Below, one piece after another: positions 5,269-56,509 of a stretch of DNA of 64,000 bases (position 1 is its first letter; each line of letters begins with the position of its first letter). A model generated the notes under the pieces. It searched no databases, was not told the origin of the DNA, and worked only from the letters and a program-made list of their open reading frames with translations. The translations under genes and the position numbers were made by a program. The stretch covers positions 10,996 to 74,995 of the forward strand of contig JBHGBG010000001.1 of the NCBI GenBank assembly GCA_041946875.1. The letters are read 5' to 3'. Source of the stretch: Candidatus Bathyarchaeia archaeon (lineage in GTDB: Archaea; Thermoproteota; Bathyarchaeia; Bathyarchaeales; Bathycorpusculaceae).

Positions 5269-6267
5269 ATGGCACTCAAATTTGGAATTGAATTCGTTCC
5301 AAAAGACCCCTACTGGAAACTAGCTGCGTACGCGATTCAAGCTGAGAACCGCGGGTTCAGCAACCTCTGGGTGACCGACCACTACGGCAACCGCAACGTC
5401 TACGTCACTCTAGCAGCCGCGGCCATGTACACGAATAAGATTACGTTCGGCACGGGCGTAACCAACCCCTGGATGGTCAACCCAGTCATAACCGCACAGG
5501 CTATCGCCACGCTGAACGAGCTGGCGCCAGGCAGAGTGGTTCTGGGCATGGGCGCCGGCGACAAGACTACTCTTGAAGCGGTTGGCGTGGAAATGGGTAA
5601 GCCACTCGCCGCCGTAAAAGAAGCCATAGAATTGTTCCGCAAATTGACCGCGGGCGAAACCGTGGCTTATCAGGGCGAAGTGTTCAAGACTGCGGGCGCC
5701 AAATTCAACTTCAAGACGAAGAACAAGATTCCCGTCTACGTCGGCGCTCAAGGTCCAAAGATGCTGGAGATGGCTGGAAAAATCGGGGACGGCGTCTTGG
5801 TCAACGCAAGCCATCCGAGCGACATAGGCTACGCCGTCAAAATGGCCGGCGAAGGCATGAAGCAAGCAGGTAAATCGGCAGCGGACGTGGACATCGCGGC
5901 GTACACCTCGTTCAGTATAAACGAGGACCCGAAGAAAGCCGTGAAAGCCGCCTTGCCAGTTGTCGCCTTCATCGTTGCGGGAAGCCCACCGCCCGTCCTC
6001 GAGAAGCACGGAATCAGCCCGGGAAAAGCTGACGAAATCCGCGCAGCCCTCAAGGTCGGCGATTTCCCGAAAGCATTGGGCGCGGTTACTCCCGAGATGA
6101 TAAACGCCTTCTCCATCAGCGGCACGCCCGACGTTTGCATCGAGAAAATCACGGAGCTGAAGAAAATCGGCATCAGCCAATTCGTCGTCGGCTCGCCCAT
6201 AGGCACGAACGTCAAAGCCGCCATAGACCTCATCGGCGCGAAGATTATTCCGCACTTCAAGGAGTAA
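5269..6267 (+). CDS. mer: F420-dependent 5,10-methylenetetrahydromethanopterin reductase (Mer), LLM-class oxidoreductase
   Basis: GGAGG ribosome-binding site upstream. Near full-length resemblance to Mer: KFGIEFVP, VTDHY.NR, GTGVTNP, GMGAGDK, YVGAQGPKMLEMAG, VAFIVAGSPP, FSISGTPD. Confidence 0.85.
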   Translation: MALKFGIEFVPKDPYWKLAAYAIQAENRGFSNLWVTDHYGNRNVYVTLAAAAMYTNKITFGTGVTNPWMVNPVITAQAIATLNELAPGRVVLGMGAGDKTTLEAVGVEMGKPLAAVKEAIELFRKLTAGETVAYQGEVFKTAGAKFNFKTKNKIPVYVGAQGPKMLEMAGKIGDGVLVNASHPSDIGYAVKMAGEGMKQAGKSAADVDIAAYTSFSINEDPKKAVKAALPVVAFIVAGSPPPVLEKHGISPGKADEIRAALKVGDFPKALGAVTPEMINAFSISGTPDVCIEKITELKKIGISQFVVGSPIGTNVKAAIDLIGAKIIPHFKE

Positions 6268-18905: not shown

Positions 18906-20252
18906 TCAGCTGGAGCGGAAGTAGTCGGTCAGCCTCTTCTGGAACAGCAGGTTCCTCAGCATGTGACCCTGAACAATCCACTGGTGCATAGGAATCTCGA
19001 ACCGGCCGCTGATGAACTTCAACGCCTCGTTCAGCGTCCTAAACTGGAAAGGCTTCTGACGCATGGCATTCCGCACATTCTCCCTTACTTGCCAAACGCC
19101 CACGGGCATGATGTAGCCGGGTCGGGCTTCGCGCAGAACGACGACGGTTGCCTGCCTGCGTTCCTTCACAAGTTGCTCGCACACCGCAAGCCTCGCCGAG
19201 TAGTAGCATCCGCCAATCTGCGCGTACGTGGTTCTGCCGTCGTTGCCTTCCCAGTCGGAGTAAATCTCCACCGTTGCCCCGTTCGGGTTCCAAACTGTGC
19301 CGGGGTACCAGGCTTCCATAGACTCGTAGCTCCACTGCGCTGGGACCATGAGAATCTCGAACACGTTGTCCAAGTAGATGGACTCGTACACGCGGAACTC
19401 GTTGATTTCGGGAAAAGTCTTCACCTGCTCCACAAGGCCTTTGCCGATGATGTCGTCAACCGCGGTGATGCTCCAGCGTGTGGGCACGAGGCGACGCTTC
19501 TTCTCCAGTCCGAAGGCGCCGACGCTGAAGGCTTTCTGAATCTTCGTGACCATGACGCCGCTCTTGTACAAGTCCAGCACCGCGGGCTGAGCCTTCAAGT
19601 CCGTATCGTAATAAGCCTTCTCCACGTGATGATCAAACCTCGCGTCTCCCACGTGCAAGTCCCGAATTGGCGCGGAGGGACCGAAAGGCTGCACTTCAGC
19701 GTCCATGAAAATCGAGCCGCGAGGCTTCTTCGTCAGGTTTAACTCGATGTCCACGCTGTTCTCCGCCAGAGCCAACTCCCGCGTCTGCTCCACGATTTTC
19801 CCTGCCTGCGTGAACGCCTGCACATGGACGCGGTGCTTGCCGCGAACGAGGAGACTGCGGAACCCGACGATTTCGTCTATGGTCTTTCCGAACCACCGCT
19901 CGGGCAAGTCGAACAGCGAAGTATCCTCTTGAACGGGCGGAACGAGCGGTCCAGCGTAGACGTAAGGATAGCCGATTCTGCCGATGAACACACTGGGAGG
20001 CGAAACCCCGTCGATGTCCTCGCTAAACATGAGGGGCACGCTGCGCAGGTAGCTGTTGACCTTGACCATGATGGGGCAGCGGGTTTTTCCGCACAGGTTT
20101 CGGGCGCCCTTACAGAGAACGCAGAGGCTACTCTGCCGGGCACGGGTTGTTATCTGCCGCTCTTCCACGGCGGCGCTGTTGACCTGCCTGATGACGTTGA
20201 GTAGCCAGTTGTCGCCCGAAGAGGCAGAACCGCGAACCTGAGTCTGAATCAT
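18906..20252 (-). CDS. Nre-family (COG1602, DUF650/DUF651) putative DNA-repair protein
   Basis: Cys motif LCVLCKGARNLCGKTRCP followed by GVSPPSVFIGRIGYPYV, which I recognise from archaeal NreA-like proteins. Confidence 0.55.
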   Translation of the reverse strand: MIQTQVRGSASSGDNWLLNVIRQVNSAAVEERQITTRARQSSLCVLCKGARNLCGKTRCPIMVKVNSYLRSVPLMFSEDIDGVSPPSVFIGRIGYPYVYAGPLVPPVQEDTSLFDLPERWFGKTIDEIVGFRSLLVRGKHRVHVQAFTQAGKIVEQTRELALAENSVDIELNLTKKPRGSIFMDAEVQPFGPSAPIRDLHVGDARFDHHVEKAYYDTDLKAQPAVLDLYKSGVMVTKIQKAFSVGAFGLEKKRRLVPTRWSITAVDDIIGKGLVEQVKTFPEINEFRVYESIYLDNVFEILMVPAQWSYESMEAWYPGTVWNPNGATVEIYSDWEGNDGRTTYAQIGGCYYSARLAVCEQLVKERRQATVVVLREARPGYIMPVGVWQVRENVRNAMRQKPFQFRTLNEALKFISGRFEIPMHQWIVQGHMLRNLLFQKRLTDYFRSS

Positions 20253-20392
20253 CGCTAATTCTGGTGAGGCTTGCTCTCATATGTTTTCTGCACGCAAAAA
20301 GCTCAAAACAACATAACCCCTCAAGCTTCAAGAAGCACGGAGAAAAACAGAAGCTTTTTCTTCACGGACCGTCTTGTCGAAGAACGAGCAGC

Positions 20393-21166
20393 ATGAAGGA
20401 AGAAACTGAAAGCTTCATCAAAGGTTACGTCAAGGCTTGCAGGTCAAAGGTGCCCACCGCTACAAGCTGGGAAGAACCCTTGGTAGCCTTCGCAGACGCC
20501 CAGGACCCCTTGTTCCCGAGGCTCAAACAACTCGTGGATGCCCAGCACTTCCTGCCCGCGGACCTGCAGGCTGACGCAAAGACGGTCGTTTCCTACTTTC
20601 TTCCGTTCACAAGAGAAACCACGTTGAGCAACGCGCGGGGCAGAGGCGCCTCGGAGCAGTGGGCAAAATCCTACGTCGAAACCAACCAGCTGATCACAAA
20701 CCTCAGCAAAGCTATCTGCGAAATGCTGGAGCAGCACGGGTTCAGAGGAGCAGTAACATTGCCGACTCACAACTTTGACGAAGAAAAACTCGTCTCCAAC
20801 TGGTCTCAGAAGCATGTAGCTTACATCGCGGGCTTGGGCACGTTCGGACTGCACAGCATGATAATCACCGAGAAGGGCTGCTGCGGCAGACTCGGAAGCA
20901 TAGTCACAAACGCAGAAATCACACCCACCCAAAGGAGTGCAAAGGAGTTCTGCCTGTTCAAACTGGACGGCTCATGCGGAGCATGCGTCAAGAAATGCAG
21001 ACCGAAAGCTCTCAAAGCAGACTCTCTGGACAAGCGGGCGTGTTATGAGGAATGCCTTACAAACGCCAGAAAGTACGCGGCGCTCGGGTTGGCCGACGTG
21101 TGCGGGAAATGCGTGGTCAACGTTCCGTGCAGCTTCACAAACCCCTCCAGAGCTGCGAAAACCTGA
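20393..21166 (+). CDS. QueG/reductive-dehalogenase-superfamily-like Fe-S protein
   Basis: AGLGTFGLHSMIITEKGCCGRLGSIVT resembles the QueG core, and C-terminal cysteine clusters (CGACVKKC, CGKCVVNVPC) follow. Start chosen at the internal ATG at 20393. Confidence 0.45.
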   Translation: MKEETESFIKGYVKACRSKVPTATSWEEPLVAFADAQDPLFPRLKQLVDAQHFLPADLQADAKTVVSYFLPFTRETTLSNARGRGASEQWAKSYVETNQLITNLSKAICEMLEQHGFRGAVTLPTHNFDEEKLVSNWSQKHVAYIAGLGTFGLHSMIITEKGCCGRLGSIVTNAEITPTQRSAKEFCLFKLDGSCGACVKKCRPKALKADSLDKRACYEECLTNARKYAALGLADVCGKCVVNVPCSFTNPSRAAKT

Positions 21167-21245
21167 CCAAGACAATCCTACGTTCCGATAGGCTTCGGTT
21201 GCAAGAAAGGCTTAAAGCCCCAGCATGGTCTTGGCTTAGACTCAA

Positions 21246-22172
21246 GTGGAAAACTTGGACGCAAACCTCTTAGGCAACTCAGCCGCGATTCTTACCGCGT
21301 TCCTGTGGACCGGCAGCTCCATCCTGTTCACCTCCGCAGGCAAGCGAATGAGTTTCTTCAGCGTCAACGCCTTCCGCTCCGCCATCACAGTCGGCATGCT
21401 CGCCCTCGCCCATGTTGTCCTACTGGGCTATGTTCTGCCTGCTGCCAGCGGCGAGCAGTGGTTCTGGATGGGGTTGAGCGGCATCGTGGGGCTGGGCATC
21501 GGCGACTTCGGCTTGTTTGCCGCCTACATCCTAATTGGTCCGAGGCGAGCGCTTCTGATAATGGCTTCCTCGCCCATCTTCGCGTCCGTCGGCGCCTTCC
21601 TCATGCTCGACGAAACGTTTCCGGCACTTGCCATTCTTGGAGTGGCGGTTACGTTGATGGGCATAGTTGTGGTCTTGCTGGAAAGGGAAAACGGCACGGA
21701 ACAACCAACCGACGGAAGCAAGCGCAAGGCTTGGGGGCTGTTTGCCGCCACCGTCGCCGCGGCGGGTCAGGGAATCGGCTTGGTGCTCTCCAAACAAGGA
21801 ATGTACGTCGGAGGAGAAGTAGCCATGAACCCCGTGTCGGCAGCCCTGATTCGGATGATGATTGCTACGGTGTTCGTGTGGGTCGCCGCATTGCTGTTCA
21901 AGAAACTGCCTGAACTGCGCAAAACGGCGAAAGACAGAGAGGGCTTGAAGTTTGTTTCTGGCGGCGCCCTGATTGGGCCTTTCCTGGGTATGACACTCTC
22001 CCTGCTCGCGGTGTCTTACACGGAGGCGGGCATTGCTCAGACGCTGCTCTCGCTGGAGCCGCTGATTATCATCCCGCTCATGTGGTTGCTGTATCGCGAG
22101 CGGACGAACTGGCGAGGAATCCTCGGAGCCGTCTTAGCCGTAGTCGGCGTGACAATCTTAATGCTGACTTGA
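21246..22172 (+). CDS. DMT-superfamily (EamA) transporter
   Basis: Ten TM helices arranged as two EamA-like halves. Confidence 0.75.
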   Translation: MENLDANLLGNSAAILTAFLWTGSSILFTSAGKRMSFFSVNAFRSAITVGMLALAHVVLLGYVLPAASGEQWFWMGLSGIVGLGIGDFGLFAAYILIGPRRALLIMASSPIFASVGAFLMLDETFPALAILGVAVTLMGIVVVLLERENGTEQPTDGSKRKAWGLFAATVAAAGQGIGLVLSKQGMYVGGEVAMNPVSAALIRMMIATVFVWVAALLFKKLPELRKTAKDREGLKFVSGGALIGPFLGMTLSLLAVSYTEAGIAQTLLSLEPLIIIPLMWLLYRERTNWRGILGAVLAVVGVTILMLT

Positions 22173-22267
22173 AGCTGAAGTCTTCTTTGGAAACGGCGGA
22201 TGCGGCTGTGCGGTGAAACCGCAAGGTTTAAACGCTTTTCGCAGAAACTATTGTTTGGTGTTTTGAT

Positions 22268-22546
22268 ATGGAAAAATCCAGTCAGAAATATTTCTCAATG
22301 ATAAAACTAGGTCCAGCGGGCGCAGGAAAACTGTACGCTGCAGTCATGAAGTGGAAAGAAAAACCAATCGACGGCGTCAAGCTTGAAGAAGCCTACCAAG
22401 TGTTTGGCAAGTGGGATTTCGCCATTCTGTTCGAGGCGGACACAAATGAGAACGCACTTCACTTCGTCGGCGACGTTGTGCGACCCATTGAAGGCGTGGC
22501 TTCGATGAAGACAACGCCCATTTCGCCGATTAGAAAATGGCGCTGA
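22268..22546 (+). CDS. Stand-alone Lrp/AsnC ligand-binding (RAM-like) domain protein
   Basis: 92 aa. VFGKWDFAILFEADTNE...IEGV..T.T resembles the AsnC_trans_reg effector domain. There is no HTH. Confidence 0.4.
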   Translation: MEKSSQKYFSMIKLGPAGAGKLYAAVMKWKEKPIDGVKLEEAYQVFGKWDFAILFEADTNENALHFVGDVVRPIEGVASMKTTPISPIRKWR

Positions 22547-22588
22547 ACCTGAGCATTCTTTTTCTTGTTTTCCTCAAAAGGAGTAGAG

Positions 22589-22695
22589 TGGCGCCCAGGC
22601 CGGGATTCGGACCCGGGTCCTGCGGGCGACAGCCGCATATACTGCTCCGGCAACATGAAAGAACTCATGTTGAGACCGGACTATACTACCTGGGC
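22589..22695 (-). tRNA. tRNA-Asp (anticodon GUC) with a 29-nt non-canonical intron in the D-loop; CCA encoded
   Basis: The minus strand reads GCCCAGG UA GUAU AGUCCGGUCU [CAACATGAGTTCTTTCATGTTGCCGGAGC] A GUAU A UGCGG CUGUCGC CCGCA GGAC CCGGG UCCGAAU CCCGG CCUGGGC G CCA. The cloverleaf closes only after the 29 nt at 22644-22672 are removed. The intron contains a perfect 8-bp hairpin (CAACATGA/TCATGTTG). Confidence 0.8.
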
Positions 22696-22721
22696 AGTTC
22701 GTTTCGTGCAGAATCTCTCTC

Positions 22722-23654
22722 TTATTCAGACATATAAAGATACTTTTTGCCCGTGATGCTTTCAAAGCGCTTTGCGTGTTTTTGATTGTGGAAACCAATA
22801 GATTTGGCGAATTTATCAACTTCCCTTCTTGCATACAGACCGCATTTTGGCGAAGGCGTGTCAGACCATTTACTAGGCTTGAAGCCAAGTTGCAGAAGAC
22901 CTCGTCTGTATGTTTCCTGAATTCCTTTAATCTTAGAGGTTAGTTCCAACTGGGGCATGCTTCGATTGGAAGATTTGGGGAAAACTGTTCCGTCGGTGTC
23001 AAACAATCCTCTTATGCATGACTTAAGATAAGAATTATTCTCAAAAATCCATGACGGTATGCCTACATTTTGCTTTTTCTTGTTCCCAGGCTTGAGTCCG
23101 TAGTATTCCAACGTAAATACTAAATTCTTGTCATTGACATAAAACATCACAGCCCTTGCAGTCTTAAGTCTGAAACTCTTGAGTGGTTGTCCTAGAACTC
23201 TTGAGAACAACGGAGAAACAAAGGACTCAAGATATTTCCAGTCGTCTTCACCTCCACATATCCTTGCGGCATATTGTCCAGACTCGGAAGAGTCATCAAG
23301 ATGGCCATCACCTAGAATCACACCAATGATTTCAGCCAAGTCACTAGATTTTTCGCAAAGAAGTTTAACCCTCTTTGGCTTTCCGCCTCCACCGGTGACA
23401 CCTCCTTTCTTTTGCCCCCAGTTGGACTTTACCAGTCCAACCACATCGCTGTCGCATTCTTCCTCGGAAATAGCACACAATTGTTTGAATGTTGAGAAGG
23501 AAAGCGTGCATTCCCCATTTCTTAATTCATGACAGAGGTAGTGTGGGTTAAGACCGAACTGCAATGCTAATTCCGCCCACGATAAGCCGGTTTTCGCTTT
23601 CGCTTTTTCAATTAACTTTTTTTGTTTTTCCCTGGGGAGTTTTACTCTTTGCAT
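22722..23654 (-). CDS. Free-standing double-motif LAGLIDADG homing endonuclease with N-terminal HTH
   Basis: Two LAGLIDADG motifs (LAEIIGVILGDGHL and LKSCIRGLFDTDGTV) and an N-terminal HTH-like segment (TGLSWAELALQFGLNPHYL). Confidence 0.8.
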   Translation of the reverse strand: MQRVKLPREKQKKLIEKAKAKTGLSWAELALQFGLNPHYLCHELRNGECTLSFSTFKQLCAISEEECDSDVVGLVKSNWGQKKGGVTGGGGKPKRVKLLCEKSSDLAEIIGVILGDGHLDDSSESGQYAARICGGEDDWKYLESFVSPLFSRVLGQPLKSFRLKTARAVMFYVNDKNLVFTLEYYGLKPGNKKKQNVGIPSWIFENNSYLKSCIRGLFDTDGTVFPKSSNRSMPQLELTSKIKGIQETYRRGLLQLGFKPSKWSDTPSPKCGLYARREVDKFAKSIGFHNQKHAKRFESITGKKYLYMSE

Positions 23655-23847
23655 TTAATTGTCATCTTTTATTAATTTATAGAAATAGCTACACTACTTA
23701 AACCTTACCACGTCCATTCCTCTAGATGGCTGCAAGCGATACTTCTATTTTGAACAGCCATTGCAATTAAGTAACCACGGACTGAAAGCTGCGTAATGCT
23801 TAAAAGGAAATGATACGGAAATACGAACTGTACAGGAGGCCAAAATA

Positions 23848-24498
23848 ATGGCAGACTATCCTTGGACGCTAAAAACCAGCGCACTTGAAGACTTTCTTAA
23901 GAAAATGTCCACAAGACCCGAACCTGCAAGGGTCACGCAAGAGTTTTTGAAATCTTTGGGTTATACGAGCAGCAACGATTGGCAGACGATACCTATCCTC
24001 AAGTTTTCAAAGTTTCTTGACGCAAACGGTAATCCGACTGAATTCTATAGGAACTTCAGAGACACGAGCAAAGCAAAAGCAGTTATGGCACAAGCAATAC
24101 GAGAGAGTTACTCGGAATTGTTTTTGGCTCATGCAGCTCCTTGGCAAGCGAGCGATGTGGACTTAGAGAATTTCTTTCGGACAAAAACAGGCAGAGGCGA
24201 AAGGATGTTACGTGCAACAGTTGGAACATTCAAGGAACTGTGCCAATTTGCGGATTTTGGAGCCGCACCAATCCAAATGCAGCCTTCTTTGCAACAGGCA
24301 AACGCAACAGTCACAACGTTATCAACAGCTAGTGCGCAACCCCCAACAATTCATTTGCCAATTACAAGAGAAGGTGGAGTAAATTTGAACGTTGACATAA
24401 GACTTGAACTGCCTGCCACACAGGACGCGAGCGTCTATGACAAAATCTTCGAGTCTCTCAAGAAACACCTTCTCAACCCAAACTCAAAAGCAGATTGA
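23848..24498 (+). CDS. DUF5343-like protein
   Basis: YPWTLKTSALEDFLKKM....P.RVTQEFLKSLGYTSSND...ILKFSKFLD..GNPTEFYRNFR.....KAVMAQAIRESYSELF matches my memory of the DUF5343 family pattern. The C-terminal tail is NVDIRLELPATQDASVYDKIFESLKKHL. Confidence 0.55.
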   Translation: MADYPWTLKTSALEDFLKKMSTRPEPARVTQEFLKSLGYTSSNDWQTIPILKFSKFLDANGNPTEFYRNFRDTSKAKAVMAQAIRESYSELFLAHAAPWQASDVDLENFFRTKTGRGERMLRATVGTFKELCQFADFGAAPIQMQPSLQQANATVTTLSTASAQPPTIHLPITREGGVNLNVDIRLELPATQDASVYDKIFESLKKHLLNPNSKAD

Positions 24499-25036
24499 GA
24501 ATATTCTAAGAGAAGTGTCCAGTTTCAAGACAGAAGCAGATGGTATCCTAATCAAGTTTAAGCCCGTCACTCCTCCGAAAGAGCCAGCGCAAATCCTTGA
24601 GAATCTGTTTTTGAGGTTTCATATCGTGGCAAAGCAACTTCAAAAGAGGCAAAGAAACCGACAACCACTTGAAATAAATGATGAATATGATGTCCAAGAT
24701 TTGTTACATGGGCTTCTCAAAATATTTTTTGATGACGTTAGACCTGAAGAGTACTGTCCGAGCTATGCTGGAACATCTCCTCGTGTTGATTTCTACCTCA
24801 AAAAGGAGCAAATTCTAGTTGAAGCGAAAATGGCAAGCACAAACCATCGTAAGAAGAAAGTTGCCGAGGAGCTAGTTCTAGACAAAGAGTATTATCGCAA
24901 GAAAGAAGGATGTCAAGCGATGTACGCGTTGGTTTACGAGCCTGAAGAAGTGATATCAAATCCCCGTGGTTTTGAAAGCGATTTATGTGAAAAGAGAGAA
25001 AACTTCGAAGCAAGGTTTTTTGTGGTTTCAAAGTAG
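24437..25036 (+). CDS. PD-(D/E)XK-like nuclease-fold protein (start uncertain)
   Basis: DEYDVQDLLHGLL...RPEE...SPRVDFYLKKEQILVEAKM gives a D...(D/E)xK arrangement. The ORF overlaps the upstream gene. Possible starts are ATG 24404 or 24437, or GTG near 24515. Confidence 0.5.
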   Translation: MTKSSSLSRNTFSTQTQKQIENILREVSSFKTEADGILIKFKPVTPPKEPAQILENLFLRFHIVAKQLQKRQRNRQPLEINDEYDVQDLLHGLLKIFFDDVRPEEYCPSYAGTSPRVDFYLKKEQILVEAKMASTNHRKKKVAEELVLDKEYYRKKEGCQAMYALVYEPEEVISNPRGFESDLCEKRENFEARFFVVSK

Positions 25037-25055
25037 TGAAAAACGGTAGTCGCTT

Positions 25056-25088
25056 GCATAATACTAGACCGGACTATACTACCTGGGC
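25056..25088 (-). repeat. Partial, intron-less tRNA-Asp 5' fragment (distal att-like repeat)
   Basis: The minus strand reads GCCCAGGTAGTATAGTCCGGTCT-AGTATTATGC. This is exon 1 joined directly to an exon-2-like sequence (spliced tRNA: ...GGTCT-AGTATATGC). Confidence 0.7.
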
Positions 25089-25125
25089 TCCTAAAGCGTA
25101 GAACAATACTGACTTCCTCCACTAA

Positions 25126-25626
25126 TTAACTTTTCTCGGACGCGTTCAGGGTTTCGGGTTTTTGGTGCTGCTTGCCCGTCATGCAGTGGATGTGGATTTT
25201 GCCCATGGTAGTCTTGGCGAGTTTCTCAGGTTTTATCTTCGCCAGTTTCTCTTCTGGCTTCGCTGACAACTGCCGAACAATGACTTCAATAGCATGCCGC
25301 TTCTCTGCAGCGTCTTCGATGAGGCTGAATTTTCCGGCGAAGTGGACGCTGGTATAGGCGTAGTCGCATTCGTCGGTGACACCGTAGTCATGCACTGCCT
25401 GCCCCCAGACTTTGGTGTTTGATTTCAGGAAAATGAGCTTCTTGCCCTCGGAGGCACAGTGAAAGTACAAGCAGTTGTTTTCTTTGTCGTAGCCGTGACT
25501 CAGCGACACGAGGTAAGGCTCGTTGTCCATGCTCATGGCGATTGTGACGTACTTGGTAGATTTCAAGACGTTTTGCATGGTTTCGCGGTCGGTTATTTCT
25601 CGGTCCCTGCGTCTAACGTGAAACAT
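25126..25626 (-). CDS. Pyridoxamine 5'-phosphate oxidase family (FMN-binding split barrel) protein
   Basis: MFHVRRRDREITDRETMQNVL....YVTIAMS.DNEPY.V.LS.......LYFH.A..G.K is the typical PNPOx-like N-terminus. Confidence 0.7.
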   Translation of the reverse strand: MFHVRRRDREITDRETMQNVLKSTKYVTIAMSMDNEPYLVSLSHGYDKENNCLYFHCASEGKKLIFLKSNTKVWGQAVHDYGVTDECDYAYTSVHFAGKFSLIEDAAEKRHAIEVIVRQLSAKPEEKLAKIKPEKLAKTTMGKIHIHCMTGKQHQKPETLNASEKS

Positions 25627-26283: not shown

Positions 26284-26553
26284 CTACTTCTTCAGAACCC
26301 GCAGAGTTCGCTCAGCCGTGGACACGCATGAAAGAAGGTCGTCGATTGTGGCGGTAAACGTGGCCAATTTGCCTTCAGTCGCTATGTCTGTGATGACGGC
26401 TTTGCCCCTGTGCTCTGTCCTGATGGCCAAGCCGGGCGGCGTTTTGAAGTTGTCGGGTGAAACTCCATCGGCGACGGCACGCGCTGTTTTCTCGTCGTTG
26501 TACTCAAGCGTTATCTTGGCTTCCAACTTCCTCGCCTCTGAGCTGTTTCCCAA
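26284..26553 (-). CDS. pcc1: KEOPS complex subunit Pcc1
   Basis: 89 aa. LEAKITLEYNDEKTARAVADGVSPD...TATIDDLL..V..AE aligns with archaeal Pcc1. It overlaps the 3' end of the DHH gene by 50 nt. Confidence 0.6.
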   Translation of the reverse strand: MGNSSEARKLEAKITLEYNDEKTARAVADGVSPDNFKTPPGLAIRTEHRGKAVITDIATEGKLATFTATIDDLLSCVSTAERTLRVLKK

Positions 26554-27961
26554 CGAGGGCGTTGACTGCGCTCACGAAAGCCTCGACCTTGTCTAGCGGC
26601 GACTGGCCGCCCGCGGCTATGTTGTGCCCTCCGCCCTTGCCCGAGGCTCTTTCTGCCGCGGCGTGCATGACTTCGCCCAAGTTTATGCCTTTGCGGACGG
26701 CGAGGTCGGTGGTTCGTGCGGAGAACTTGGCGACGCCCTCGCCTGGGACGGTGGCGTAGGCGAGGAGGGGTTTTTCGACGTTGGGCAGGCTGGTGGTGAG
26801 TATGCTGCTGATGGTGCCGATGACTTTTTCGTTCACAAAGTCTTCGCCGTTCAGGACGTAGATGTTTTCGAGTTCTCTGAGGCGCTCGGGTTTCTCGTTG
26901 ACCCAGTTGAGGTATTTGTTGATGTCTTTACGGTAGTTCTCGAGGACCCGGTTGGCTTCTTCCAGCGCCTTGGTGCGGTCGCCCATGCAGACGGCTATTC
27001 CGAGGCTGGGTCTGCCCATGCGTCCGGTGGAGTTGAGGACGACGGCGAATTCTCTTGCGTCTCGGAGGCTGGTCCAGGGTTCCTCTTGTGTGAGGGTGTA
27101 GATGTTTCCGATGAGGTTGGTGACTTCGTAGTGCAGTCCCTTTGACAGGAGGTAGTCTGCGAGTGCGGAGCAGAGTCGTTTCTTCTCGTCTTCGGTGAGG
27201 TCGCGAAGTGCGCGCCATTTGTCGCCGCTCTTCAGCGGGATGTCGAGGCTGGAGAGGAAGGCGAGGCTTTTGTCTTCTTCGCCGCTTATGCCTGGAATGA
27301 ACGGGTTCGTCGTGGTGGAGAGGGTTTTGTGGATGGGGCGGGTTTCTCTGCCGAAGAAGGTTAGGTCTTTTTCGACTTTGACTAAGCCTGCGTTGACAGC
27401 GTCGTTGACGATTTGTTCGTTGAGTCCGCCGAGTTTGCGTTGGTCGTACCGGTCTTGCAGGTCGCCGAGGGCGCCGACGAGGGCGATGGGTGCGAGGTCC
27501 ACGTTTCGCTGGTCTACTGCTCGGGCTGCGAAGTAGGCGACGCCTGAGCCGCTGACGTCTGTGGCGCCGTCGAACCCGTGGAGGTGTGGGTTGACTTGGA
27601 CAAAGTTGGTGTTCTGCGTTGTGCCCGAAACTTGGTGGTGGTCGAGGATGACGACTTTGACTGCGGGTATTTTCTCGTTGAGTAGGTCGAGGTAGCCGCT
27701 GCCGAAGTCGGTGAATATGACGAGTTCGGGTTTGTCGGCGGTGATTTCGCCTATGATTTTTTCGTCTACCCACTGCGTGATTCTCGTGCGGAAGCGTGCG
27801 TCGAGGCGGAAGAGGGTTTTTGCCATGATGCCTGCGGCGGCGATGCCGTCTGCGTCGAGGTGGGAGAAGACGTGGATGAAGCCGTCTTTTTGGGTGGTTT
27901 CGTGGATGGTTTTGGCGGCTTCGTTTGCTGATGTGAGGAAGGTTGTGGTGTCTTGGGTCAT
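26504..27961 (-). CDS. DHH-family phosphoesterase, archaeal RecJ/Cdc45-like (GAN-type) nuclease
   Basis: DHH motifs: HLDADGIAAAGI (motif I/II), FTDFGSG, VILDHHQ, and a C-terminal GGGHNIAAG (DHHA1) motif. It sits directly downstream of rps15, as in many archaea. Confidence 0.8.
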   Translation of the reverse strand: MTQDTTTFLTSANEAAKTIHETTQKDGFIHVFSHLDADGIAAAGIMAKTLFRLDARFRTRITQWVDEKIIGEITADKPELVIFTDFGSGYLDLLNEKIPAVKVVILDHHQVSGTTQNTNFVQVNPHLHGFDGATDVSGSGVAYFAARAVDQRNVDLAPIALVGALGDLQDRYDQRKLGGLNEQIVNDAVNAGLVKVEKDLTFFGRETRPIHKTLSTTTNPFIPGISGEEDKSLAFLSSLDIPLKSGDKWRALRDLTEDEKKRLCSALADYLLSKGLHYEVTNLIGNIYTLTQEEPWTSLRDAREFAVVLNSTGRMGRPSLGIAVCMGDRTKALEEANRVLENYRKDINKYLNWVNEKPERLRELENIYVLNGEDFVNEKVIGTISSILTTSLPNVEKPLLAYATVPGEGVAKFSARTTDLAVRKGINLGEVMHAAAERASGKGGGHNIAAGGQSPLDKVEAFVSAVNALVGKQLRGEEVGSQDNA

Positions 27962-28732: not shown

Positions 28733-29017
28733 AAGTGCGCCATCGGTTTGCCATCTGCATTGGGCTTTCTCAGAATGGCCCCAGAAAAGGCTGAGGATTC
28801 CTCTCTGGCTCTCACCTCCCGGCAAGCTCATGCAGTTTCACCTGCCGAAAACTGCAGAAGGCTGTGCCTGAAGAACCCTCACGAAATTTAGAAATTTACC
28901 AATTCACAGATTTTTTAACAAGACAAATTTCAGAAAAAAGGATGCTTGCAAGACTGCAAATCTGACTTTTTTGGACCCACACAATAGCATATCATCTTTG
29001 CTTGAATTCTGTCGAGT

Positions 29018-29704
29018 CTATCCTTGGGCTTCTTCCGTATACAATCGAACTTTCACTTTCGCTGGTACTCTTCCTCGGTTCTCCATAATCAGATACCATG
29101 ACCCTTTTCGCGGTGTCACGTAGTCTATTTCGGTTTCTAAAACTCCTTCGTTGCAATCTTCAGATTCGAAATCCCTGTTACCTGTCCAATCTTCGAAGTT
29201 TAACCAATCCACAAAATAGACATCAATAGGATTGTCTGAGACTATTTTTCCTTTCAGGTGGTCATCTTTCATTAGTCTAAACTCGTAGGAATAGCCGTCA
29301 GATGGTTTCACGACGATTGTTTCTTTACGAATAAATGCTTTCTTTTCTGCTTGGCTGCTCTGTGGGTGTTCTTCTTTTTTTGAAGCTACAGTAATACTGA
29401 CCTTTGATTGATCATGTGCCATTACTTGAATCCCAGAGGATTTTTTCTGTATTTGTTTGTTATGCGAATCCGAACTATCTTCGTCTTTCCCAATGTTCTT
29501 GAAAAACCGGACGGCAATTTCCCCTATTGAATCTGGTTTCAATAAACACCCGGCTCCCAGTCCGCCAACAAAAATAGCTAGGACCCACATCACTACAGAG
29601 GTTAGGTTTAACCCCATGCTGATCGCGGAAACCAAGAATATTGGAAAAGCAATCATTAAACAAGTCAAACCAGTGACGTAACTATCTCTTCTTTTCTTGT
29701 CCAT
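29018..29704 (-). CDS. Hypothetical membrane-anchored protein (two N-terminal TM helices plus a soluble C-terminal domain)
   Basis: Low-GC ORF. The C-terminal segment VYFVDWLNFEDWTGNRDFE...PRKGSWYLIMENRG...KVKVRL loosely recalls the DUF1883 pattern; this is a weak call from memory only. Confidence 0.45.
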   Translation of the reverse strand: MDKKRRDSYVTGLTCLMIAFPIFLVSAISMGLNLTSVVMWVLAIFVGGLGAGCLLKPDSIGEIAVRFFKNIGKDEDSSDSHNKQIQKKSSGIQVMAHDQSKVSITVASKKEEHPQSSQAEKKAFIRKETIVVKPSDGYSYEFRLMKDDHLKGKIVSDNPIDVYFVDWLNFEDWTGNRDFESEDCNEGVLETEIDYVTPRKGSWYLIMENRGRVPAKVKVRLYTEEAQG

Positions 29705-29817
29705 GCATATTCAATTAACATAGGTTGCCTATTTCTTTTGCTCTTCAAAGATAAGACTGAGACAATCCGAATTGTTCACAAAGTCTTAAATCTACTAAGC
29801 GTAGAATAGCCTGAATT

Positions 29818-30708
29818 ATGATGAAATATTCCACCAGAAGGTTATCTTTGCTTATCGTATTCATAACCTTAATAGTGATCACATTTGTTGTTGGCTCTCC
29901 AATTGAAAAAGTGCATTCAGCTTCGTTTAGAATAGCGAGCGGAGAAGTCGAGTTTCAGGATATAGATACTTCTTCAGGAATGGTGTTGCTCCATTTCGTT
30001 TTCGATGAACAAACAGGTTCGGATGACTATAGAGACCGCTCGATGAGTTGGATAATATGGGAATATGGCAAATCGGGAGGTTTCGTATCAACTCCAATAG
30101 GTCCTGCTGACCCTGATTGGAAGTTAATTGGGACGAACAACGACACTAGTTGGAAATGGAGACTTGAGAAAACATTGTGGGCTAACTATCACCACAGTGG
30201 CTTCTTTCCCCTTGAACAGTTTAAGGTAAGTTTCTATGTCTGCTCAAATGAAAGCCGTGGCTTCGAAGTCAGAAGTCTTATTCCTAATTCATTTCCTTCA
30301 ATATTCCAAACGGGGGTAGTTCCTGAGGAAGTTCCTCATAGTTTCAAGTTTGAAGGAGTCCCAGAGCAAATTAGAGTCGATATTTCTTTCGGTCCAGATA
30401 GTATCTCTTCTCTGATAGGAGTAATGCTTTACGTTCTCTTTGGTGTACTCATCGTTCTTTGGGGAGTGCTATTTCAAAGGAGAAGAAGCACTAAACTTGA
30501 ACATTCAATTATGATAACGTCAAGTGTTTTGGTTTTTCTACCCATACTAGTGTTTACCTTTAGAACGTCCATCGCTCCGAAATACCTGATGCCGATTGAC
30601 ATACTGGGATTCTCCGTGATGTTGGTCTTTGGGATTCTGCTCATCTACGAGTTCTACGCAAAAACGAGAACCCCCAGAATGAACTTCGATCCTGGACTAT
30701 ACGATTGA
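29818..30708 (+). CDS. Hypothetical membrane protein (signal anchor, extracytoplasmic domain, three C-terminal TM helices)
   Basis: Low-GC ORF transcribed divergently from 29018..29704. No motif recognised. Confidence 0.45.
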   Translation: MMKYSTRRLSLLIVFITLIVITFVVGSPIEKVHSASFRIASGEVEFQDIDTSSGMVLLHFVFDEQTGSDDYRDRSMSWIIWEYGKSGGFVSTPIGPADPDWKLIGTNNDTSWKWRLEKTLWANYHHSGFFPLEQFKVSFYVCSNESRGFEVRSLIPNSFPSIFQTGVVPEEVPHSFKFEGVPEQIRVDISFGPDSISSLIGVMLYVLFGVLIVLWGVLFQRRRSTKLEHSIMITSSVLVFLPILVFTFRTSIAPKYLMPIDILGFSVMLVFGILLIYEFYAKTRTPRMNFDPGLYD

Positions 30709-30811
30709 ACAGAAATGACAACAGTCTGTGCGCGGCAGACGGAATCTTTGCAGACAAGAATAGAAAACAGATAGCAACGAATTGTCACTTTAGCTGATTT
30801 CATTTCGCTAA

Positions 30812-31399
30812 TCATATCGTGCTCTTGTACCAATGTGCGAACTGGAGGAGAGCCCTTGCCCTATGCGAGAAGCCGTTTTTCTCTTCAAGAGTCATTTCCG
30901 CAAATGTTTTGTTGCTGCCTTCGGGTTGGAAGATGGGGTCGAACCCGAACGCGGACCTGTCGCCTTTCCTCTCTTGGGTCGTGATTTGTCCTGTGGCTTC
31001 GCCGTGGAAGCATATGTGCGCCTTGTTTGTGCTGTTGCAGTAGGCTATGGCTGAGCGGAATGTGGCGTGTCTGTTCGGCTGGTTCTCCATGAGCTTGAGG
31101 AGTCCTTTGTTGCCGACGGTTTTGTAGACGTACGCCGCGTACGGTCCAGGAAAGCCTTTCAGCGCTTCGACGAAAAGTCCTGCGTCCTCGACGATGAGGG
31201 GCAGGTGGCAGCGGTTAAACGCGTCGATGGCGCTTGCGGCGGCTATTTCGCTGAGGCTGTCGCTCTGGATTTCCACCGCCTTCACTCGCAGCATGCCTAC
31301 GGCTATGCCTTCCTGGGCGAGGACGGCGCGGGCTTCGTGGAACTTGTGGACGTTGCCCGTCGCGAAGAAAACCACCTTCCCCTTCAATCCTGCGTTCAT
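30812..31399 (-). CDS. Non-canonical purine NTP pyrophosphatase (XTP/dITP diphosphatase, RdgB/HAM1 family)
   Basis: VVFFATGNVHKFHEA, VEDAGLFVEAL.GFPGPY and FGFDPIF are HAM1 family motifs. Confidence 0.85.
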   Translation of the reverse strand: MNAGLKGKVVFFATGNVHKFHEARAVLAQEGIAVGMLRVKAVEIQSDSLSEIAAASAIDAFNRCHLPLIVEDAGLFVEALKGFPGPYAAYVYKTVGNKGLLKLMENQPNRHATFRSAIAYCNSTNKAHICFHGEATGQITTQERKGDRSAFGFDPIFQPEGSNKTFAEMTLEEKNGFSHRARALLQFAHWYKSTI

Positions 31400-56407: not shown

Positions 56408-56509
56408 TGGTGGGCCCGGGGAGATTCGGACTCCCGACCAACAGGTCTCTCAGTGCCCTAATAGGCATCTTATGAGCCTGGCGCTCTAACCTAGCTGAGC
56501 TACGGGCCC
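56408..56509 (-). tRNA. tRNA with anticodon CAU (elongator Met or Ile2) and a 24-nt intron at the canonical 37/38 position; CCA encoded
   Basis: The minus strand reads GGGCCCG UA GCUC AGCUAGGUUA GAGC G CCAGG CUCAUA[AGATGCCTATTAGGGCACTGAGAG]A CCUGU UGGUC GGGAG UCCGAAU CUCCC CGGGCCC A CCA. The G1:C72 pair argues against an initiator tRNA. Confidence 0.8.

What the first reader, a model, noticed from the sequence alone, without database searches (positions are those of the whole stretch)
22589..25088. Low-GC 2.4-kb islet inserted at the 5' end of tRNA-Asp, bounded by 23-bp direct repeats and lacking any recombinase
The 23-mer AGACCGGACTATACTACCTGGGC occurs at 22673-22695 and again at 25066-25088. 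The first copy is the reverse complement of the first 23 nt of the tRNA-Asp gene. My spot counts of 60-nt lines between the two copies give 40-43% GC, against about 62% just outside (22081-22140). The segment carries only three ORFs: a LAGLIDADG endonuclease, a DUF5343-like protein and a PD-(D/E)XK-like protein. This is the signature of site-specific integration into a tRNA gene. However, there is no tyrosine or serine recombinase and no split int halves next to the repeats. The insertion is also on the 5' side of the tRNA rather than the commoner 3' side. The islet is therefore either a decayed or minimal integrated element, an element mobilised in trans, or one using a non-canonical route. 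After insertion, the intact tRNA must be transcribed from islet-derived sequence. A TTTATAT box sits at 22733-22739 inside the 3' end of the endonuclease ORF, about 40 nt upstream of the tRNA. The displaced 5' fragment keeps a comparable AT-rich box (GTTAATTAG, about 25121-25131) at a similar distance.
Basis: partly seen in the sequence, partly recalled or inferred. Interest (0 to 1): 0.75.

Follow-up and report, generated by a model that had tools for sequence, protein, structure and literature searches.

The report
Homing-endonuclease cassette inserted in tRNA-Asp
The 2.4-kb low-GC islet is most likely not a decayed integrase island but a cassette driven by a LAGLIDADG homing endonuclease that cuts into an archaeal tRNA-Asp gene, brings its own promoter, 5' tRNA part and a small D-loop intron, and carries defence-like genes as cargo.

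Summary
The 23-mer occurs twice, the islet has 42% GC against 55% for the window (z = -4.3), and it holds three ORFs and no recombinase. Related Bathyarchaeia genomes have empty sites.

The interpretation changes. The copy at 22673-22695 is the 22-nt 5' exon plus the first base of a 29-nt D-loop intron of tRNA-Asp(GTC). The copy at 25056-25088 is a 33-nt orphan 5' fragment of an intronless tRNA-Asp.

The HTH-LAGLIDADG gene belongs to a family that lies immediately upstream of a tRNA gene (Gln, Glu, Asp) in at least 69 of 74 testable loci from Bathyarchaeia and other uncultured archaea, probably DPANN. In eight loci only this gene lies between an orphan fragment and the tRNA.

All nine Asp-type cassettes carry the D-loop intron, and all six orphans lack it. 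D-loop insertions are enriched next to these genes (16/39 against 2/35).

The space between orphan and endonuclease gene holds different cargo in three loci: PDC-M34A plus an REase here, an Mrr-like REase, and a TIR-like protein.

My best reading is homing-endonuclease mobility with replacement of the tRNA 5' part. Endonuclease activity, its target and any protective role of the intron are inferred, not shown.

One architectural precedent exists (Caldiarchaeum tRNA-Thr, 2012) and was attributed to an integrase.

The parts
22589..22695 (-). Functional tRNA-Asp(GTC) gene with encoded CCA and a D-loop intron
   Evidence: Rfam tRNA model, 45.8 bits, E 6.6e-08, with a 34-nt insertion in the D-loop. 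The anticodon loop CTGTCGC was read directly. The predicted fold is a cloverleaf plus an intron hairpin.
22674..22695 (-). 5' exon, 22 nt. With base 22673 it forms repeat copy 1.
   Evidence: In intronless orthologues (L006, L081, L007, L015, L016, L034, L045), nt 1-22 are joined directly to nt 52-107.
22645..22673 (-). 29-nt intron at a non-canonical D-loop position, of the bulge-helix-bulge type
   Evidence: It is absent from the intronless orthologues. The 4-bp helix CCGG/CCGG is flanked by the 3-nt bulges UC|U and AG|C, and the inner hairpin shows compensatory changes in 9 sequences.
22732..22738 (-). TTTATAT TATA-like box carried by the cassette, about 36 nt upstream of tRNA nt 1
   Evidence: ATTTATATG is conserved at the same distance in window, L004, L016, L082-84, L093 and L179. 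In L082-84, L093 and L179 it lies after the endonuclease stop codon, so it is conserved as DNA and not only as coding sequence.
22722..23654 (-). HTH-LAGLIDADG homing endonuclease gene (310 aa), the proposed mobility gene
   Evidence: Pfam LAGLIDADG_3, 1.1e-09. Two motifs with invariant Asp116 and Asp221 in 30 homologues. AlphaFold model with pLDDT 87.9; the best folds are the archaeal intron-encoded I-Tsp061I and I-DmoI. Family members sit upstream of tRNA genes in at least 69 of 74 testable loci.
23655..23707 (-). Conserved leader/promoter region of the endonuclease gene; left edge of the conserved core
   Evidence: DNA homology to L004 runs from 22577 to 23707 and stops there. The same AAGG(C/T)TTAAGTAGTGTAGCTAT(A/T)TCTATAAATT is present in L084 and L179.
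23848..24498 (+). Cargo gene 1: DUF5343 protein, matching PADLOC candidate defence protein PDC-M34A
   Evidence: Pfam DUF5343, 6.6e-37. PADLOC PDC-M34A, 2e-53.
24437..25036 (+). Cargo gene 2: PD-(D/E)XK nuclease of the REase_DpnII-MboI family
   Evidence: Pfam PF18742, 4.7e-46. It resembles the REase effector domain of Aga_Helical-REase, 9.3e-31. The start at 24437 follows the gene call on the Logan contig.
25056..25088 (-). Orphan 5' fragment of an intronless tRNA-Asp (contains repeat copy 2, 25066-25088)
   Evidence: The sequence is GCCCAGGTAGTATAGTCCGGTCTAGTATTATGC. Alignments to intronless loci L034, L045, L010 and L021 run through it to 25056, whereas the alignment to intron-bearing L008 stops at 25066. 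L045 shares the GGTC-T-AGTAT variant.
25122..25130 (-). Native tRNA promoter box GTTAATTAG, left upstream of the orphan
   Evidence: AAA(A/G)GTTAATTAG is conserved upstream of tRNA-Asp in the empty-site loci L008, L011, L020, L034 and L045. It is also conserved upstream of the orphans in L004, L084 and L093.

Best explanation
The islet is a mobile cassette driven by a homing endonuclease and specific for the tRNA-Asp gene.

The conserved core, in tRNA orientation, is: endonuclease leader, HTH-LAGLIDADG gene, TATA box, tRNA 5' exon, 29-nt D-loop intron.

Proposed mechanism (inferred, not shown):
1. The endonuclease cuts an intronless tRNA-Asp gene somewhere between the D-arm and the anticodon loop.
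2. The 3' side of the break invades a cassette-bearing allele.
3. Copying proceeds through the intron, 5' exon, promoter, endonuclease gene and whatever lies upstream of it.
4. Where the upstream flank is homologous, this is ordinary homing.
5. Where it is not, the copied DNA is joined illegitimately to the broken left end. That end keeps the recipient's own promoter and 5' tRNA fragment as an orphan.

On this reading the '23-bp direct repeat' is the recipient's old 5' part next to the cassette's replacement 5' exon. It is not an att core.

The working tRNA is transcribed from the cassette's TATA box, spliced at the bulge-helix-bulge motif and trimmed by RNase P. The D-loop intron travels with the cassette. 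It probably keeps the resident gene from being cut, for example by separating the subsites bound by the HTH domain and the nuclease core.

Genes inserted between orphan and endonuclease gene ride along. Here they are a two-gene candidate defence module.
For: Shown by tool results:
- Empty sites exist in related Bathyarchaeia. Composition is foreign, and the endonuclease gene keeps about 0.39-0.44 GC in hosts of 0.41-0.55 GC.
- The orphan is of the intronless type.
- The same architecture occurs in L004, L084, L093, L176 and L179.
- In eight loci (L084, L093, L179, L118, L128, L131, L140, L154) orphan and tRNA are 946-1152 nt apart, with room only for the endonuclease gene (split into two ORFs in L093). 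The control search gave 0 hits in 205 kb.
- A tRNA gene starts next to the stop codon on the same strand in at least 69 of 74 testable homologue loci, down to about 26-30% identity. The chance expectation is about 0.7% per locus.
- Both catalytic Asp residues are invariant. The fold matches I-Tsp061I and I-DmoI.
- All 9 Asp-type cassettes have the D-loop intron, against 4 of 13 loci without the gene (Fisher p = 0.0017). All 6 orphans lack it.
- D-loop insertions: 16/39 tRNAs adjacent to the endonuclease gene against 2/35 elsewhere (p = 0.0004).
- Decay stages are present: a split gene in L093 and a 3' remnant in L016.
- No integrase was called within 6 kb in L176, L178 or L179.

Inferred: cleavage, its position, the repair route, and immunity conferred by the intron.
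Against: - No activity or target site has been demonstrated.
- About 23 tRNAs adjacent to family members have no intron at all, so the intron cannot be the general means of protection.
- L016 has a cassette remnant in front of an intronless tRNA.
- Orphan ends vary (tRNA nt about 23, 28, 32, 32, 32, 44). This fits end resection, but it gives no single cut site. A cut near the anticodon loop would put the D-loop intron outside a typical 22-bp LAGLIDADG site.
- DNA identity of the endonuclease gene between window and L004 (about 71%) is similar to that of the flanks, so vertical inheritance of an old insertion with many losses is not excluded for that pair.
- Most homologue loci from other uncultured archaea show no orphan (8 of 59 searchable loci gave a hit, 7 of them orphans and one an intact tRNA).
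- The statistics ignore phylogenetic non-independence.
- A test for chimeric acceptor stems (excess G-U pairs) was negative.
Confidence: 0.68

Rival explanations
1. [quoted passage not shown] Its tyrosine or serine recombinase was lost or acts in trans. The LAGLIDADG gene is just cargo. 2012.
For: - A direct repeat equal to a tRNA end, a reconstituted tRNA and foreign composition are the classical signature.
- The near-identical Caldiarchaeum tRNA-Thr architecture was interpreted as a pNOB8-type integration (PMC3293823).
- Three orphans (window, L004, L093) end at the same tRNA base.
Against: - There is no recombinase in the islet or its flanks, nor within 6 kb in L176, L178 or L179.
- Eight loci have only the LAGLIDADG gene between orphan and tRNA.
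- The LAGLIDADG-tRNA linkage holds across three or more isotypes and distant archaeal lineages. Random cargo would not do this.
- Orphan end points differ among loci, from nt about 23 to 44.
- The 'recombinase' call in the 2012 paper rests on SVMProt classification, not on homology.
Confidence: 0.12
2. The LAGLIDADG protein is a resident, domesticated protein associated with tRNA genes (a regulator or maturase-like factor, as WhiA is a LAGLIDADG-derived factor). It is inherited vertically, and the orphan is a relic of a local duplication. Patchiness reflects repeated loss.
For: - The position next to tRNA genes is very widely conserved.
- The N-terminal HTH domain and a WhiA complex appear among the fold matches (rank 29).
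- Divergence between window and L004 is similar to that of the flanks.
Against: - Only 2 of 19 tRNA-Asp loci found through the neighbouring DHH gene carry the gene.
- GC3 is 0.42 against 0.55-0.74 in the host genes.
- The catalytic Asp residues are invariant.
- Pseudogenised and remnant copies exist.
- The orphans are colinear with intronless alleles found in relatives, which indicates insertion rather than duplication in place.
Confidence: 0.08
3. The 'orphan' is a working alternative 5' exon. A transcript from the native promoter would pair the orphan's UCCGG-UCU with the CCGGAG at the end of the small intron, so the whole 2.4-kb islet would be removed as a giant bulge-helix-bulge intron (a split-like tRNA arrangement).
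For: - The orphan keeps a perfect 22-nt exon plus the T that preserves a UCU bulge.
- It also keeps the native promoter box.
Against: - No inner helix can form after the bulge (read directly).
- The transcript would run antisense through both cargo genes.
- Orphans in other loci carry mutations in stem positions, for example L084 TATAATCC, L128 and L154.
- A complete tRNA with its own conserved promoter lies downstream.
Confidence: 0.03

Closest known systems
Caldiarchaeum subterraneum tRNA-Thr(GGU) insertion (Sugahara et al. 2012, PLoS One, PMC3293823)
   Same: A 5' tRNA fragment (nt 1-27) with the native upstream region is followed by a 1.87-kb insertion. An ORF of about 270 aa lies immediately upstream of the tRNA on the same strand. 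The tRNA has gained an extra intron at 24/25 that arrived with the insertion. Composition is foreign.
   Different: That case is a single locus, and its ORF was called a putative recombinase from SVMProt alone. The model was integrase/att recombination of a pNOB8-like plasmid. Here the ORF is demonstrably a LAGLIDADG enzyme, the linkage is family-wide, and no integrase is present. Homology between the Caldiarchaeum ORF and this family could not be tested: no Caldiarchaeum name appears among the top 120 profile hits.
Collaborative homing: free-standing F-CphI next to the intron-containing psbA of cyanophage S-PM2 (Zeng, Bonocora and Shub 2009, as summarised in PMC6083498)
   Same: A free-standing endonuclease gene lies next to an intron-bearing gene. 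The intron blocks self-cleavage and the endonuclease gives the intron mobility. That matches the association of endonuclease gene and D-loop intron seen here.
   Different: That system involves a phage, a group I intron, an Endo VII-type nuclease and a protein-coding gene. This one involves an archaeal chromosome, a protein-spliced bulge-helix-bulge intron, a LAGLIDADG nuclease and a tRNA gene, plus duplication of the gene's 5' part. Protection by the intron is untested here.
Archaeal intron-encoded LAGLIDADG endonucleases (I-DmoI, I-Tsp061I)
   Same: They are the closest solved folds (E 8e-10 to 3e-07, TM about 0.73 on the target). They are monomeric two-motif enzymes associated with bulge-helix-bulge introns of stable RNA genes.
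   Different: Those genes lie inside rRNA introns. This gene lies outside the 29-nt intron, upstream of a tRNA gene, and has an extra N-terminal HTH domain. There is no sequence-level match to any PDB chain.
tRNA-targeting integrative elements of archaea (SSV-type and pNOB8-type integrases)
   Same: A direct repeat of a tRNA part, a reconstituted tRNA and foreign DNA in between.
   Different: Those elements are defined by a tyrosine recombinase and a fixed attP. Here there is no recombinase, and the fragment ends vary.
Free-standing homing endonucleases of T4-like phages ('intronless homing', e.g. SegF/SegG; SegB in the tRNA cluster)
   Same: An optional endonuclease gene lies between conserved genes, cuts a neighbouring conserved gene and spreads by co-conversion (PMC6083498; PMC13096335, listed).
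   Different: Those are GIY-YIG or HNH enzymes in phage, and no duplicated gene end is left behind.
Mitochondrial endonuclease elements that carry a replacement gene end (Allomyces atp6; Ophiostoma rps3). From my own memory; not verified in the paper library.
   Same: The insertion disrupts a gene and supplies a substitute terminal segment, leaving the displaced original segment as a fragment.
   Different: Those elements target protein-coding genes and replace the 3' end through in-frame fusions in organelles. Here the 5' end of a tRNA gene is replaced, together with its promoter.

Membership tests
LAGLIDADG homing endonuclease (monomeric, two-motif) | Two LAGLIDADG motifs, each ending in a catalytic acidic residue | tested here: met
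   The motifs are LAEIIGVILGDGH (Asp116) and LKSCIRGLFDTDGT (Asp221). Both Asp residues are invariant in 30 homologues. Pfam LAGLIDADG_3, 1.1e-09.
LAGLIDADG homing endonuclease (monomeric, two-motif) | The alpha-beta-beta-alpha-beta-beta-alpha double-domain fold | tested here: met
   AlphaFold2 model with pLDDT 87.9. Foldseek top hits are I-Tsp061I (E 7.9e-10) and I-DmoI.
LAGLIDADG homing endonuclease (monomeric, two-motif) | Sporadic, optional distribution, with loci lacking the gene in relatives | tested here: met
   The gene is present in the window and L004 but absent from 17 other tRNA-Asp loci found through the neighbouring DHH gene. Degenerate copies occur in L093 and L016.
LAGLIDADG homing endonuclease (monomeric, two-motif) | Site-specific double-strand cleavage of the allele that lacks the gene | not testable with these tools
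   This needs an in vitro cleavage assay.
Integrase-mediated tRNA-targeting genomic island | A tyrosine or serine recombinase gene in or next to the element (intact, split or decayed) | tested here: not met
   The three ORFs between the repeats all belong to other families, and the flanking genes are PNPOx, a membrane protein, a DHH-family protein, a GYD-like protein and EamA. No integrase was called in L176, L178 or L179. Eight loci have room only for the endonuclease gene.
Integrase-mediated tRNA-targeting genomic island | Direct repeats identical to part of the tRNA, bounding the element | tested here: met
   However, the repeat ends at the intron splice site, and the orphan continues colinear with exon 2.
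Integrase-mediated tRNA-targeting genomic island | The same att boundary in independent insertions | tested here: inconclusive
   Three orphans end at tRNA nt 32. Others end at about 23, 28 and 44. Sequence decay blurs the ends.
Archaeal bulge-helix-bulge intron (the 29-nt D-loop insertion) | Precisely absent from orthologous genes, which restores a canonical tRNA | tested here: met
   Seven intronless orthologues join nt 22 to nt 52, giving the D-loop AGTCCGGTCCA.
Archaeal bulge-helix-bulge intron (the 29-nt D-loop insertion) | Two 3-nt bulges separated by a 4-bp helix, with the splice sites in the bulges | tested here: met
   The helix CCGG/CCGG is flanked by the bulges UC|U and AG|C, and both cuts fall after the second bulge base. 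The outer helix is the D stem, in a relaxed form. The helix is conserved and the inner hairpin covaries.
Archaeal bulge-helix-bulge intron (the 29-nt D-loop insertion) | Removal by the tRNA splicing endonuclease | not testable with these tools
   This needs tRNA-seq or an in vitro assay.
Intron-encoded homing endonuclease (I-DmoI type) | The endonuclease ORF lies inside the intron it mobilises | tested here: not met
   The ORF (22722-23654) lies 26 nt upstream of tRNA nt 1. The intron is only 29 nt.
Collaborative homing (free-standing endonuclease plus intron) | The endonuclease gene is adjacent to an intron-bearing target gene, and the two are statistically linked | tested here: met
   Intron present in 9/9 Asp-type cassettes against 4/13 loci without the gene (p = 0.0017). 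D-loop insertions 16/39 against 2/35 (p = 0.0004). Phylogenetic dependence was not corrected.
Collaborative homing (free-standing endonuclease plus intron) | The intron blocks cleavage, and the intronless allele is cut | not testable with these tools
   Indirect support only: all 6 orphans are intronless. Against it: about 23 family-adjacent tRNAs have no intron.
PDC-M34 candidate defence system (cargo) | A PDC-M34A protein with its partner gene | tested here: inconclusive
   The DUF5343 protein matches PDC-M34A at 2e-53. The partner matches REase models but no PDC-M34B model was returned.

The most novel reading that the evidence does not exclude
This HTH-LAGLIDADG family is a previously unrecognised class of homing element specific for archaeal tRNA genes. 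It avoids killing its target not by splicing itself out, but by carrying a replacement promoter and 5' tRNA part. It would also be the vehicle that plants non-canonical D-loop bulge-helix-bulge introns in tRNA-Asp, tRNA-Glu and tRNA-Gln genes. The intron would serve as the immunity determinant, making this an archaeal counterpart of collaborative homing. Loss of the endonuclease gene by recombination between the two 22-nt exon copies would leave intron-bearing tRNA genes such as those in L008, L011 and L020. That would give a concrete mechanism for tRNA intron gain and for orphan tRNA halves in Archaea. The slot between orphan and endonuclease gene would be a mobile landing pad for defence genes.
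Probability: 0.4. Interest if true: 0.85.

Novelty: new variant of a known kind. Interest (0 to 1): 0.72.

Why it matters
How archaeal tRNA genes acquire introns at non-canonical positions is a long-standing open question. So is where orphan or split tRNA halves come from. The one population-level case described so far (Caldiarchaeum, 2012) was attributed to an unseen integrase.

Here the same architecture recurs in many lineages with a recognisable endonuclease as the one constant gene. This yields a directly testable mechanism: cleave the intronless tRNA gene, then copy in a cassette that carries a promoter, a 5' exon and an intron.

Three further consequences follow.
- Some 'integrase-less tRNA islands' bounded by tRNA-derived repeats may be homing products, which matters for island-finding software.
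- The family offers new monomeric LAGLIDADG enzymes with natural tRNA-gene targets and an accessory HTH domain.
- Small defence modules (PDC-M34-like, Mrr-like, TIR-like) appear to travel as passengers of a homing endonuclease in archaeal chromosomes.

Tried and rejected
- ARAGORN on the window found no tRNA, and Rfam at gathering threshold missed tRNA-Asp. Only E-value mode found it.
- Exact-protein look-up of the PNPOx gene: not on record.
- The look-ups of the LAGLIDADG and DUF5343 proteins returned only a 2.7-kb Logan contig identical to the window. It gave no empty-site information.
- Group I intron reading: no Rfam hit other than the tRNA and two weak snoRNA-like chance matches in 22400-25300. 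All archaeal group I introns in PMC6125680 are in rRNA genes.
- Viral vector: the IMG/VR scan gave only distant LAGLIDADG hits (24-35% identity over the core, plus one 35-residue stretch at 51%) and no family members.
- Sequence search of the PDB: no hit.
- Link to the Caldiarchaeum ORF 'b': the paper's supplements hold no sequences, and no Caldiarchaeum protein is named among the top 120 profile hits. The link remains open.
- Signature of chimeric tRNAs (excess G-U pairs in acceptor stems next to the endonuclease gene): 15/65 against 16/72, no difference.
- Search for a recombinase in the second low-GC stretch (28.8-31 kb): only membrane-like ORFs.
- Six literature searches found no description of LAGLIDADG genes systematically upstream of archaeal tRNA genes. 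The library is incomplete, so this is not proof of absence.
- An attempt to document the mitochondrial gene-end-replacement analogues from the library failed. They are cited from memory only.

Full report
**1. The observation**

The 23-mer occurs exactly twice, at 22673-22695 and 25066-25088. None was expected by chance.

The first copy is the start of a tRNA-Asp(GTC) gene on the - strand. The gene runs 22695->22592, with CCA encoded to 22589. ARAGORN and Rfam's default filters miss it, but Rfam finds it at 45.8 bits once the filters are relaxed.

The segment between the copies has 42.1% GC, against 54.8 +/- 3.0% for all other windows of that length (z = -4.25). GC3 is 0.39-0.43, against 0.55-0.74 in neighbouring genes.

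The segment holds three ORFs: an HTH-LAGLIDADG protein (22722-23654, -), a DUF5343 protein (23848-24498, +) and an REase_DpnII-MboI nuclease (24437-25036, +). None is a recombinase.

A Logan contig from run SRR29307520 is identical to 22615-25342. Both junctions are therefore reproduced in another assembly.

**2. What the repeat really is**

The source organism is a Bathyarchaeia archaeon. The neighbouring DHH-family protein (a phosphoesterase family; window 26504-27961, - strand) retrieved 80 Bathyarchaeia loci at 66-83% identity.

Seven of these loci carry an intronless tRNA-Asp in which nt 1-22 are joined directly to nt 52-107 of the window's gene. The window's gene therefore has a 29-nt intron in the D-loop (22645-22673).

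The intron folds as a bulge-helix-bulge motif. The 4-bp helix CCGG/CCGG is flanked by the bulges UC|U and AG|C. The inner hairpin shows compensatory changes among nine sequences.

The 23-bp repeat is therefore the 22-nt 5' exon plus one base.

The second copy does not stop there. It continues TAGTAT(T)ATGC, colinear with exon 2 of an intronless gene. Alignments to the intronless loci L034, L045, L010 and L021 run through it to 25056, while the alignment to intron-bearing L008 stops at 25066. L045 even shares the GGTC-T-AGTAT variant.

So 25056-25088 is a 33-nt orphan 5' fragment of an intronless tRNA-Asp. It still sits behind the native promoter box (AAAAGTTAATTAG) that precedes tRNA-Asp in the empty-site loci.

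**3. Empty sites**

- L034, L045, L011, L020, L021 and L027 have the PNPOx homologue directly upstream of tRNA-Asp.
- L008 joins the spacer homologous to window 25140-25089 directly to a tRNA that is 97% identical, intron included.

The islet is an insertion.

**4. The same architecture elsewhere**

| Locus | Orphan | Between orphan and endonuclease gene | tRNA-Asp D-loop intron |
|---|---|---|---|
| window | intronless, ends ...ATGC | DUF5343 + REase | yes |
| L004 | intronless, ends ...ATGC | 384-aa Mrr_cat protein | yes |
| L084 | yes | leader only | yes |
| L179 | yes | leader only | yes |
| L093 | yes | leader only; endonuclease gene split into two ORFs | yes |
| L176 | runs through the anticodon loop | 339-aa TIR-like protein | yes |
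| L178 | none found | 634-aa ORF upstream | yes |
| L016 | none | about 200-nt remnant of the endonuclease gene's 3' end plus the cassette promoter | no (intronless) |

DNA homology between the window and L004 covers 22577-23707 only. That span is the tRNA, the endonuclease gene and about 50 nt of its leader. This is the conserved core, and what lies between leader and orphan is variable.

The ATTTATATG box about 36-44 nt upstream of the tRNA is conserved in all type-1 cassettes. In some it lies after the stop codon, so it is a DNA element, plausibly the TATA box for the tRNA.

**5. The endonuclease family**

The protein has an N-terminal helical HTH-like domain, a glycine-rich flexible linker and two LAGLIDADG motifs. 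Asp116 and Asp221 are invariant in 30 homologues.

No PDB sequence matches it. The AlphaFold model (pLDDT 87.9) is closest to the archaeal intron-encoded enzymes I-Tsp061I and I-DmoI.

A profile scan of metagenome contigs returned 80 loci. A tRNA gene starts within about -50 to +40 nt of the endonuclease stop codon on the same strand in at least 69 of the 74 loci with enough downstream sequence. The expectation is about 0.7% per locus. This holds even for homologues of about 26-40% identity. Named homologues in the protein searches come from Nano-, Aenigmat-, Pace- and Woesearchaeota (DPANN lineages), so many of these unnamed contigs are probably DPANN.

The tRNAs are mainly Gln, Glu and Asp. 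In many of these loci the ORF ends inside the tRNA: GCC CCG GTA GTG TAG reads as ..APVV*.

Orphan 5' fragments lie 946-1152 nt upstream of the tRNA in L084, L093, L118, L128, L131, L140 and L154. Only the endonuclease gene fits in that space. The control search of 205 kb gave no hit.

The IMG/VR scan gave only distant relatives.

**6. Link to the D-loop intron**

- All nine Asp-type cassettes carry the intron.
- Among loci without the gene, 4 of 13 carry it (p = 0.0017).
- All six orphans lack it.
- In the metagenome loci, insertions before the anticodon stem occur in 16 of 39 classifiable tRNAs adjacent to the endonuclease gene, against 2 of 35 others (p = 0.0004). One of those two is in fact adjacent to a family member as well.
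- The introns of L008, L011, L020 and L027, which lack the endonuclease gene, are homologous to those of the window and L004, and they sit behind the native promoter.

That last pattern is expected in two ways. The cassette could be lost by recombination between the two exon copies, or only the intron could be co-converted.

These statistics do not correct for shared ancestry.

**7. Mechanism (inferred)**

I propose that the endonuclease cuts intronless tRNA-Asp genes between the D-arm and the anticodon loop.

Repair then copies the cassette from a carrier allele. With a homologous upstream flank this is ordinary homing. Without one, the copied strand is joined illegitimately to the broken left end.

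This would explain four features:
- the orphan fragment;
- its variable end points (nt about 23-44);
- its intronless nature;
- the variable DNA next to it.

The cassette supplies the promoter, 5' exon and intron, so the tRNA stays functional.

The intron may protect the resident gene, as in collaborative homing of F-CphI and the psbA intron (PMC6083498). One possible way is by separating an HTH subsite from the nuclease subsite.

Weak points:
- Activity is untested.
- About 23 tRNAs adjacent to family members have no intron.
- L016 has an intronless tRNA behind a cassette remnant.
- Divergence of the endonuclease gene between window and L004 is similar to that of the flanks.
- A test for chimeric acceptor stems was negative.

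In favour of transfer: the endonuclease gene keeps 0.39-0.44 GC in hosts ranging from 0.41 to 0.55 GC.

**8. Cargo**

The DUF5343 protein matches the PADLOC candidate defence protein PDC-M34A (2e-53). Its partner is a PD-(D/E)XK nuclease similar to the REase effector of Aga_Helical-REase proteins.

L004 carries an Mrr_cat nuclease protein and L176 a TIR-like protein in the same slot. The slot therefore seems to collect defence-type genes, which would be co-converted with the endonuclease gene.

**9. Comparison with what is known**

The nearest precedent is the Caldiarchaeum tRNA-Thr(GGU) locus (PMC3293823). It has a 5' fragment (nt 1-27), a 1.87-kb insertion with an 813-bp ORF next to the tRNA, and an extra intron at 24/25. 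It was interpreted as a pNOB8-type integration, and the ORF was called a recombinase from SVMProt alone. I could not test whether that ORF is a LAGLIDADG protein.

Other relatives in kind:
- archaeal intron-encoded LAGLIDADG enzymes, where the gene lies inside the intron (not so here);
- free-standing phage endonucleases;
- integrase islands, whose defining recombinase is absent here;
- mitochondrial endonuclease elements that bring a replacement gene end (from memory).

Six literature searches found no description of this tRNA-linked family.

**10. Verdict**

- The integrase-style interpretation is replaced by a homing-endonuclease cassette with 5' tRNA replacement. My confidence in this is about 0.68.
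- I rate it a new variant of a known kind, with interest 0.72.

Noticed in passing
window 56411-56509 (-): A second tRNA gene of 99 nt, so also intron-bearing. Rfam scores it 52.9 bits, but ARAGORN misses it. Standard tRNA finders under-call tRNAs in this genome.
   Followed up: no
window about 28800-31000: A second low-GC stretch (0.36-0.44) holds two membrane-like ORFs of unknown function (29018-29704 on the - strand, 29818-30708 on the + strand). It lies between a ribosomal-protein-like gene and a HAM1-like gene. No recombinase or endonuclease was seen. It may be another acquired islet.
   Followed up: partly
window 20233-22587: Three + strand genes of normal GC (a 300-aa Cys-rich ORF, an EamA transporter and a GYD/AsnC-like 92-aa ORF) lie directly downstream of tRNA-Asp. 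They are absent in L007, L008 and L015, where the tRNA is followed within about 150-200 nt by the sequence homologous to window 20233 and below; L004 and L016 likewise have the Nre gene right after the tRNA. Both sides of this tRNA are therefore variable.
   Followed up: partly
window 23655-23707; L084 about 720-770; L179 about 5960-6000: The conserved endonuclease leader contains AGC-TTAA-GTAGTGTAGC. This resembles the 5' end of the tRNA-Gln/Glu genes next to distant family members (AGCCCCGTAGTGTAGC). It may be a fossil orphan from an earlier tRNA host of the cassette.
   Followed up: no
L088, L097, L104-L107 and many other loci among L085-L156: In distant homologues the endonuclease ORF ends inside the tRNA gene (GCC CCG GTA GTG TAG = APVV*). 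RNase P processing of a co-transcript would therefore remove the stop codon. This suggests coupling between tRNA maturation and endonuclease expression.
   Followed up: no
L010 15319-15345; L021 13290-13320; L027 13279-13313: Some Bathyarchaeia tRNA-Asp genes carry another non-canonical insertion of 25-33 nt between the variable loop and the T stem, with or without the D-loop intron. The tRNA-Asp gene is polymorphic for at least two intron positions.
   Followed up: no
L016 11780-11968: A decayed 3' remnant of the endonuclease gene, with the cassette-type ATTTATATG promoter, lies directly upstream of an intronless tRNA-Asp with no orphan. This is a late stage of the element's life cycle and a counter-example to strict linkage of cassette and intron.
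   Followed up: partly
L176 6940-6986; L178 6895-6939; L006/L081 upstream of the tRNA: A second type of tRNA-proximal region (AAAACTTAAGTA...CGATTAATCACTTCGGCAC) lies between the endonuclease gene and the tRNA in L176 and L178. It is also the upstream region of the intronless tRNA-Asp of L006 and L081, which lack the endonuclease gene. Either those loci descend from cassettes, or this cassette type captured a native promoter.
   Followed up: no
L159 and L160: The most distant homologues (26% identity) sit in a tRNA-Ser/Ser/Arg cluster, with tRNA-Arg about 38 nt downstream of the stop codon. The tRNA linkage therefore extends beyond Asp, Glu and Gln.
   Followed up: no
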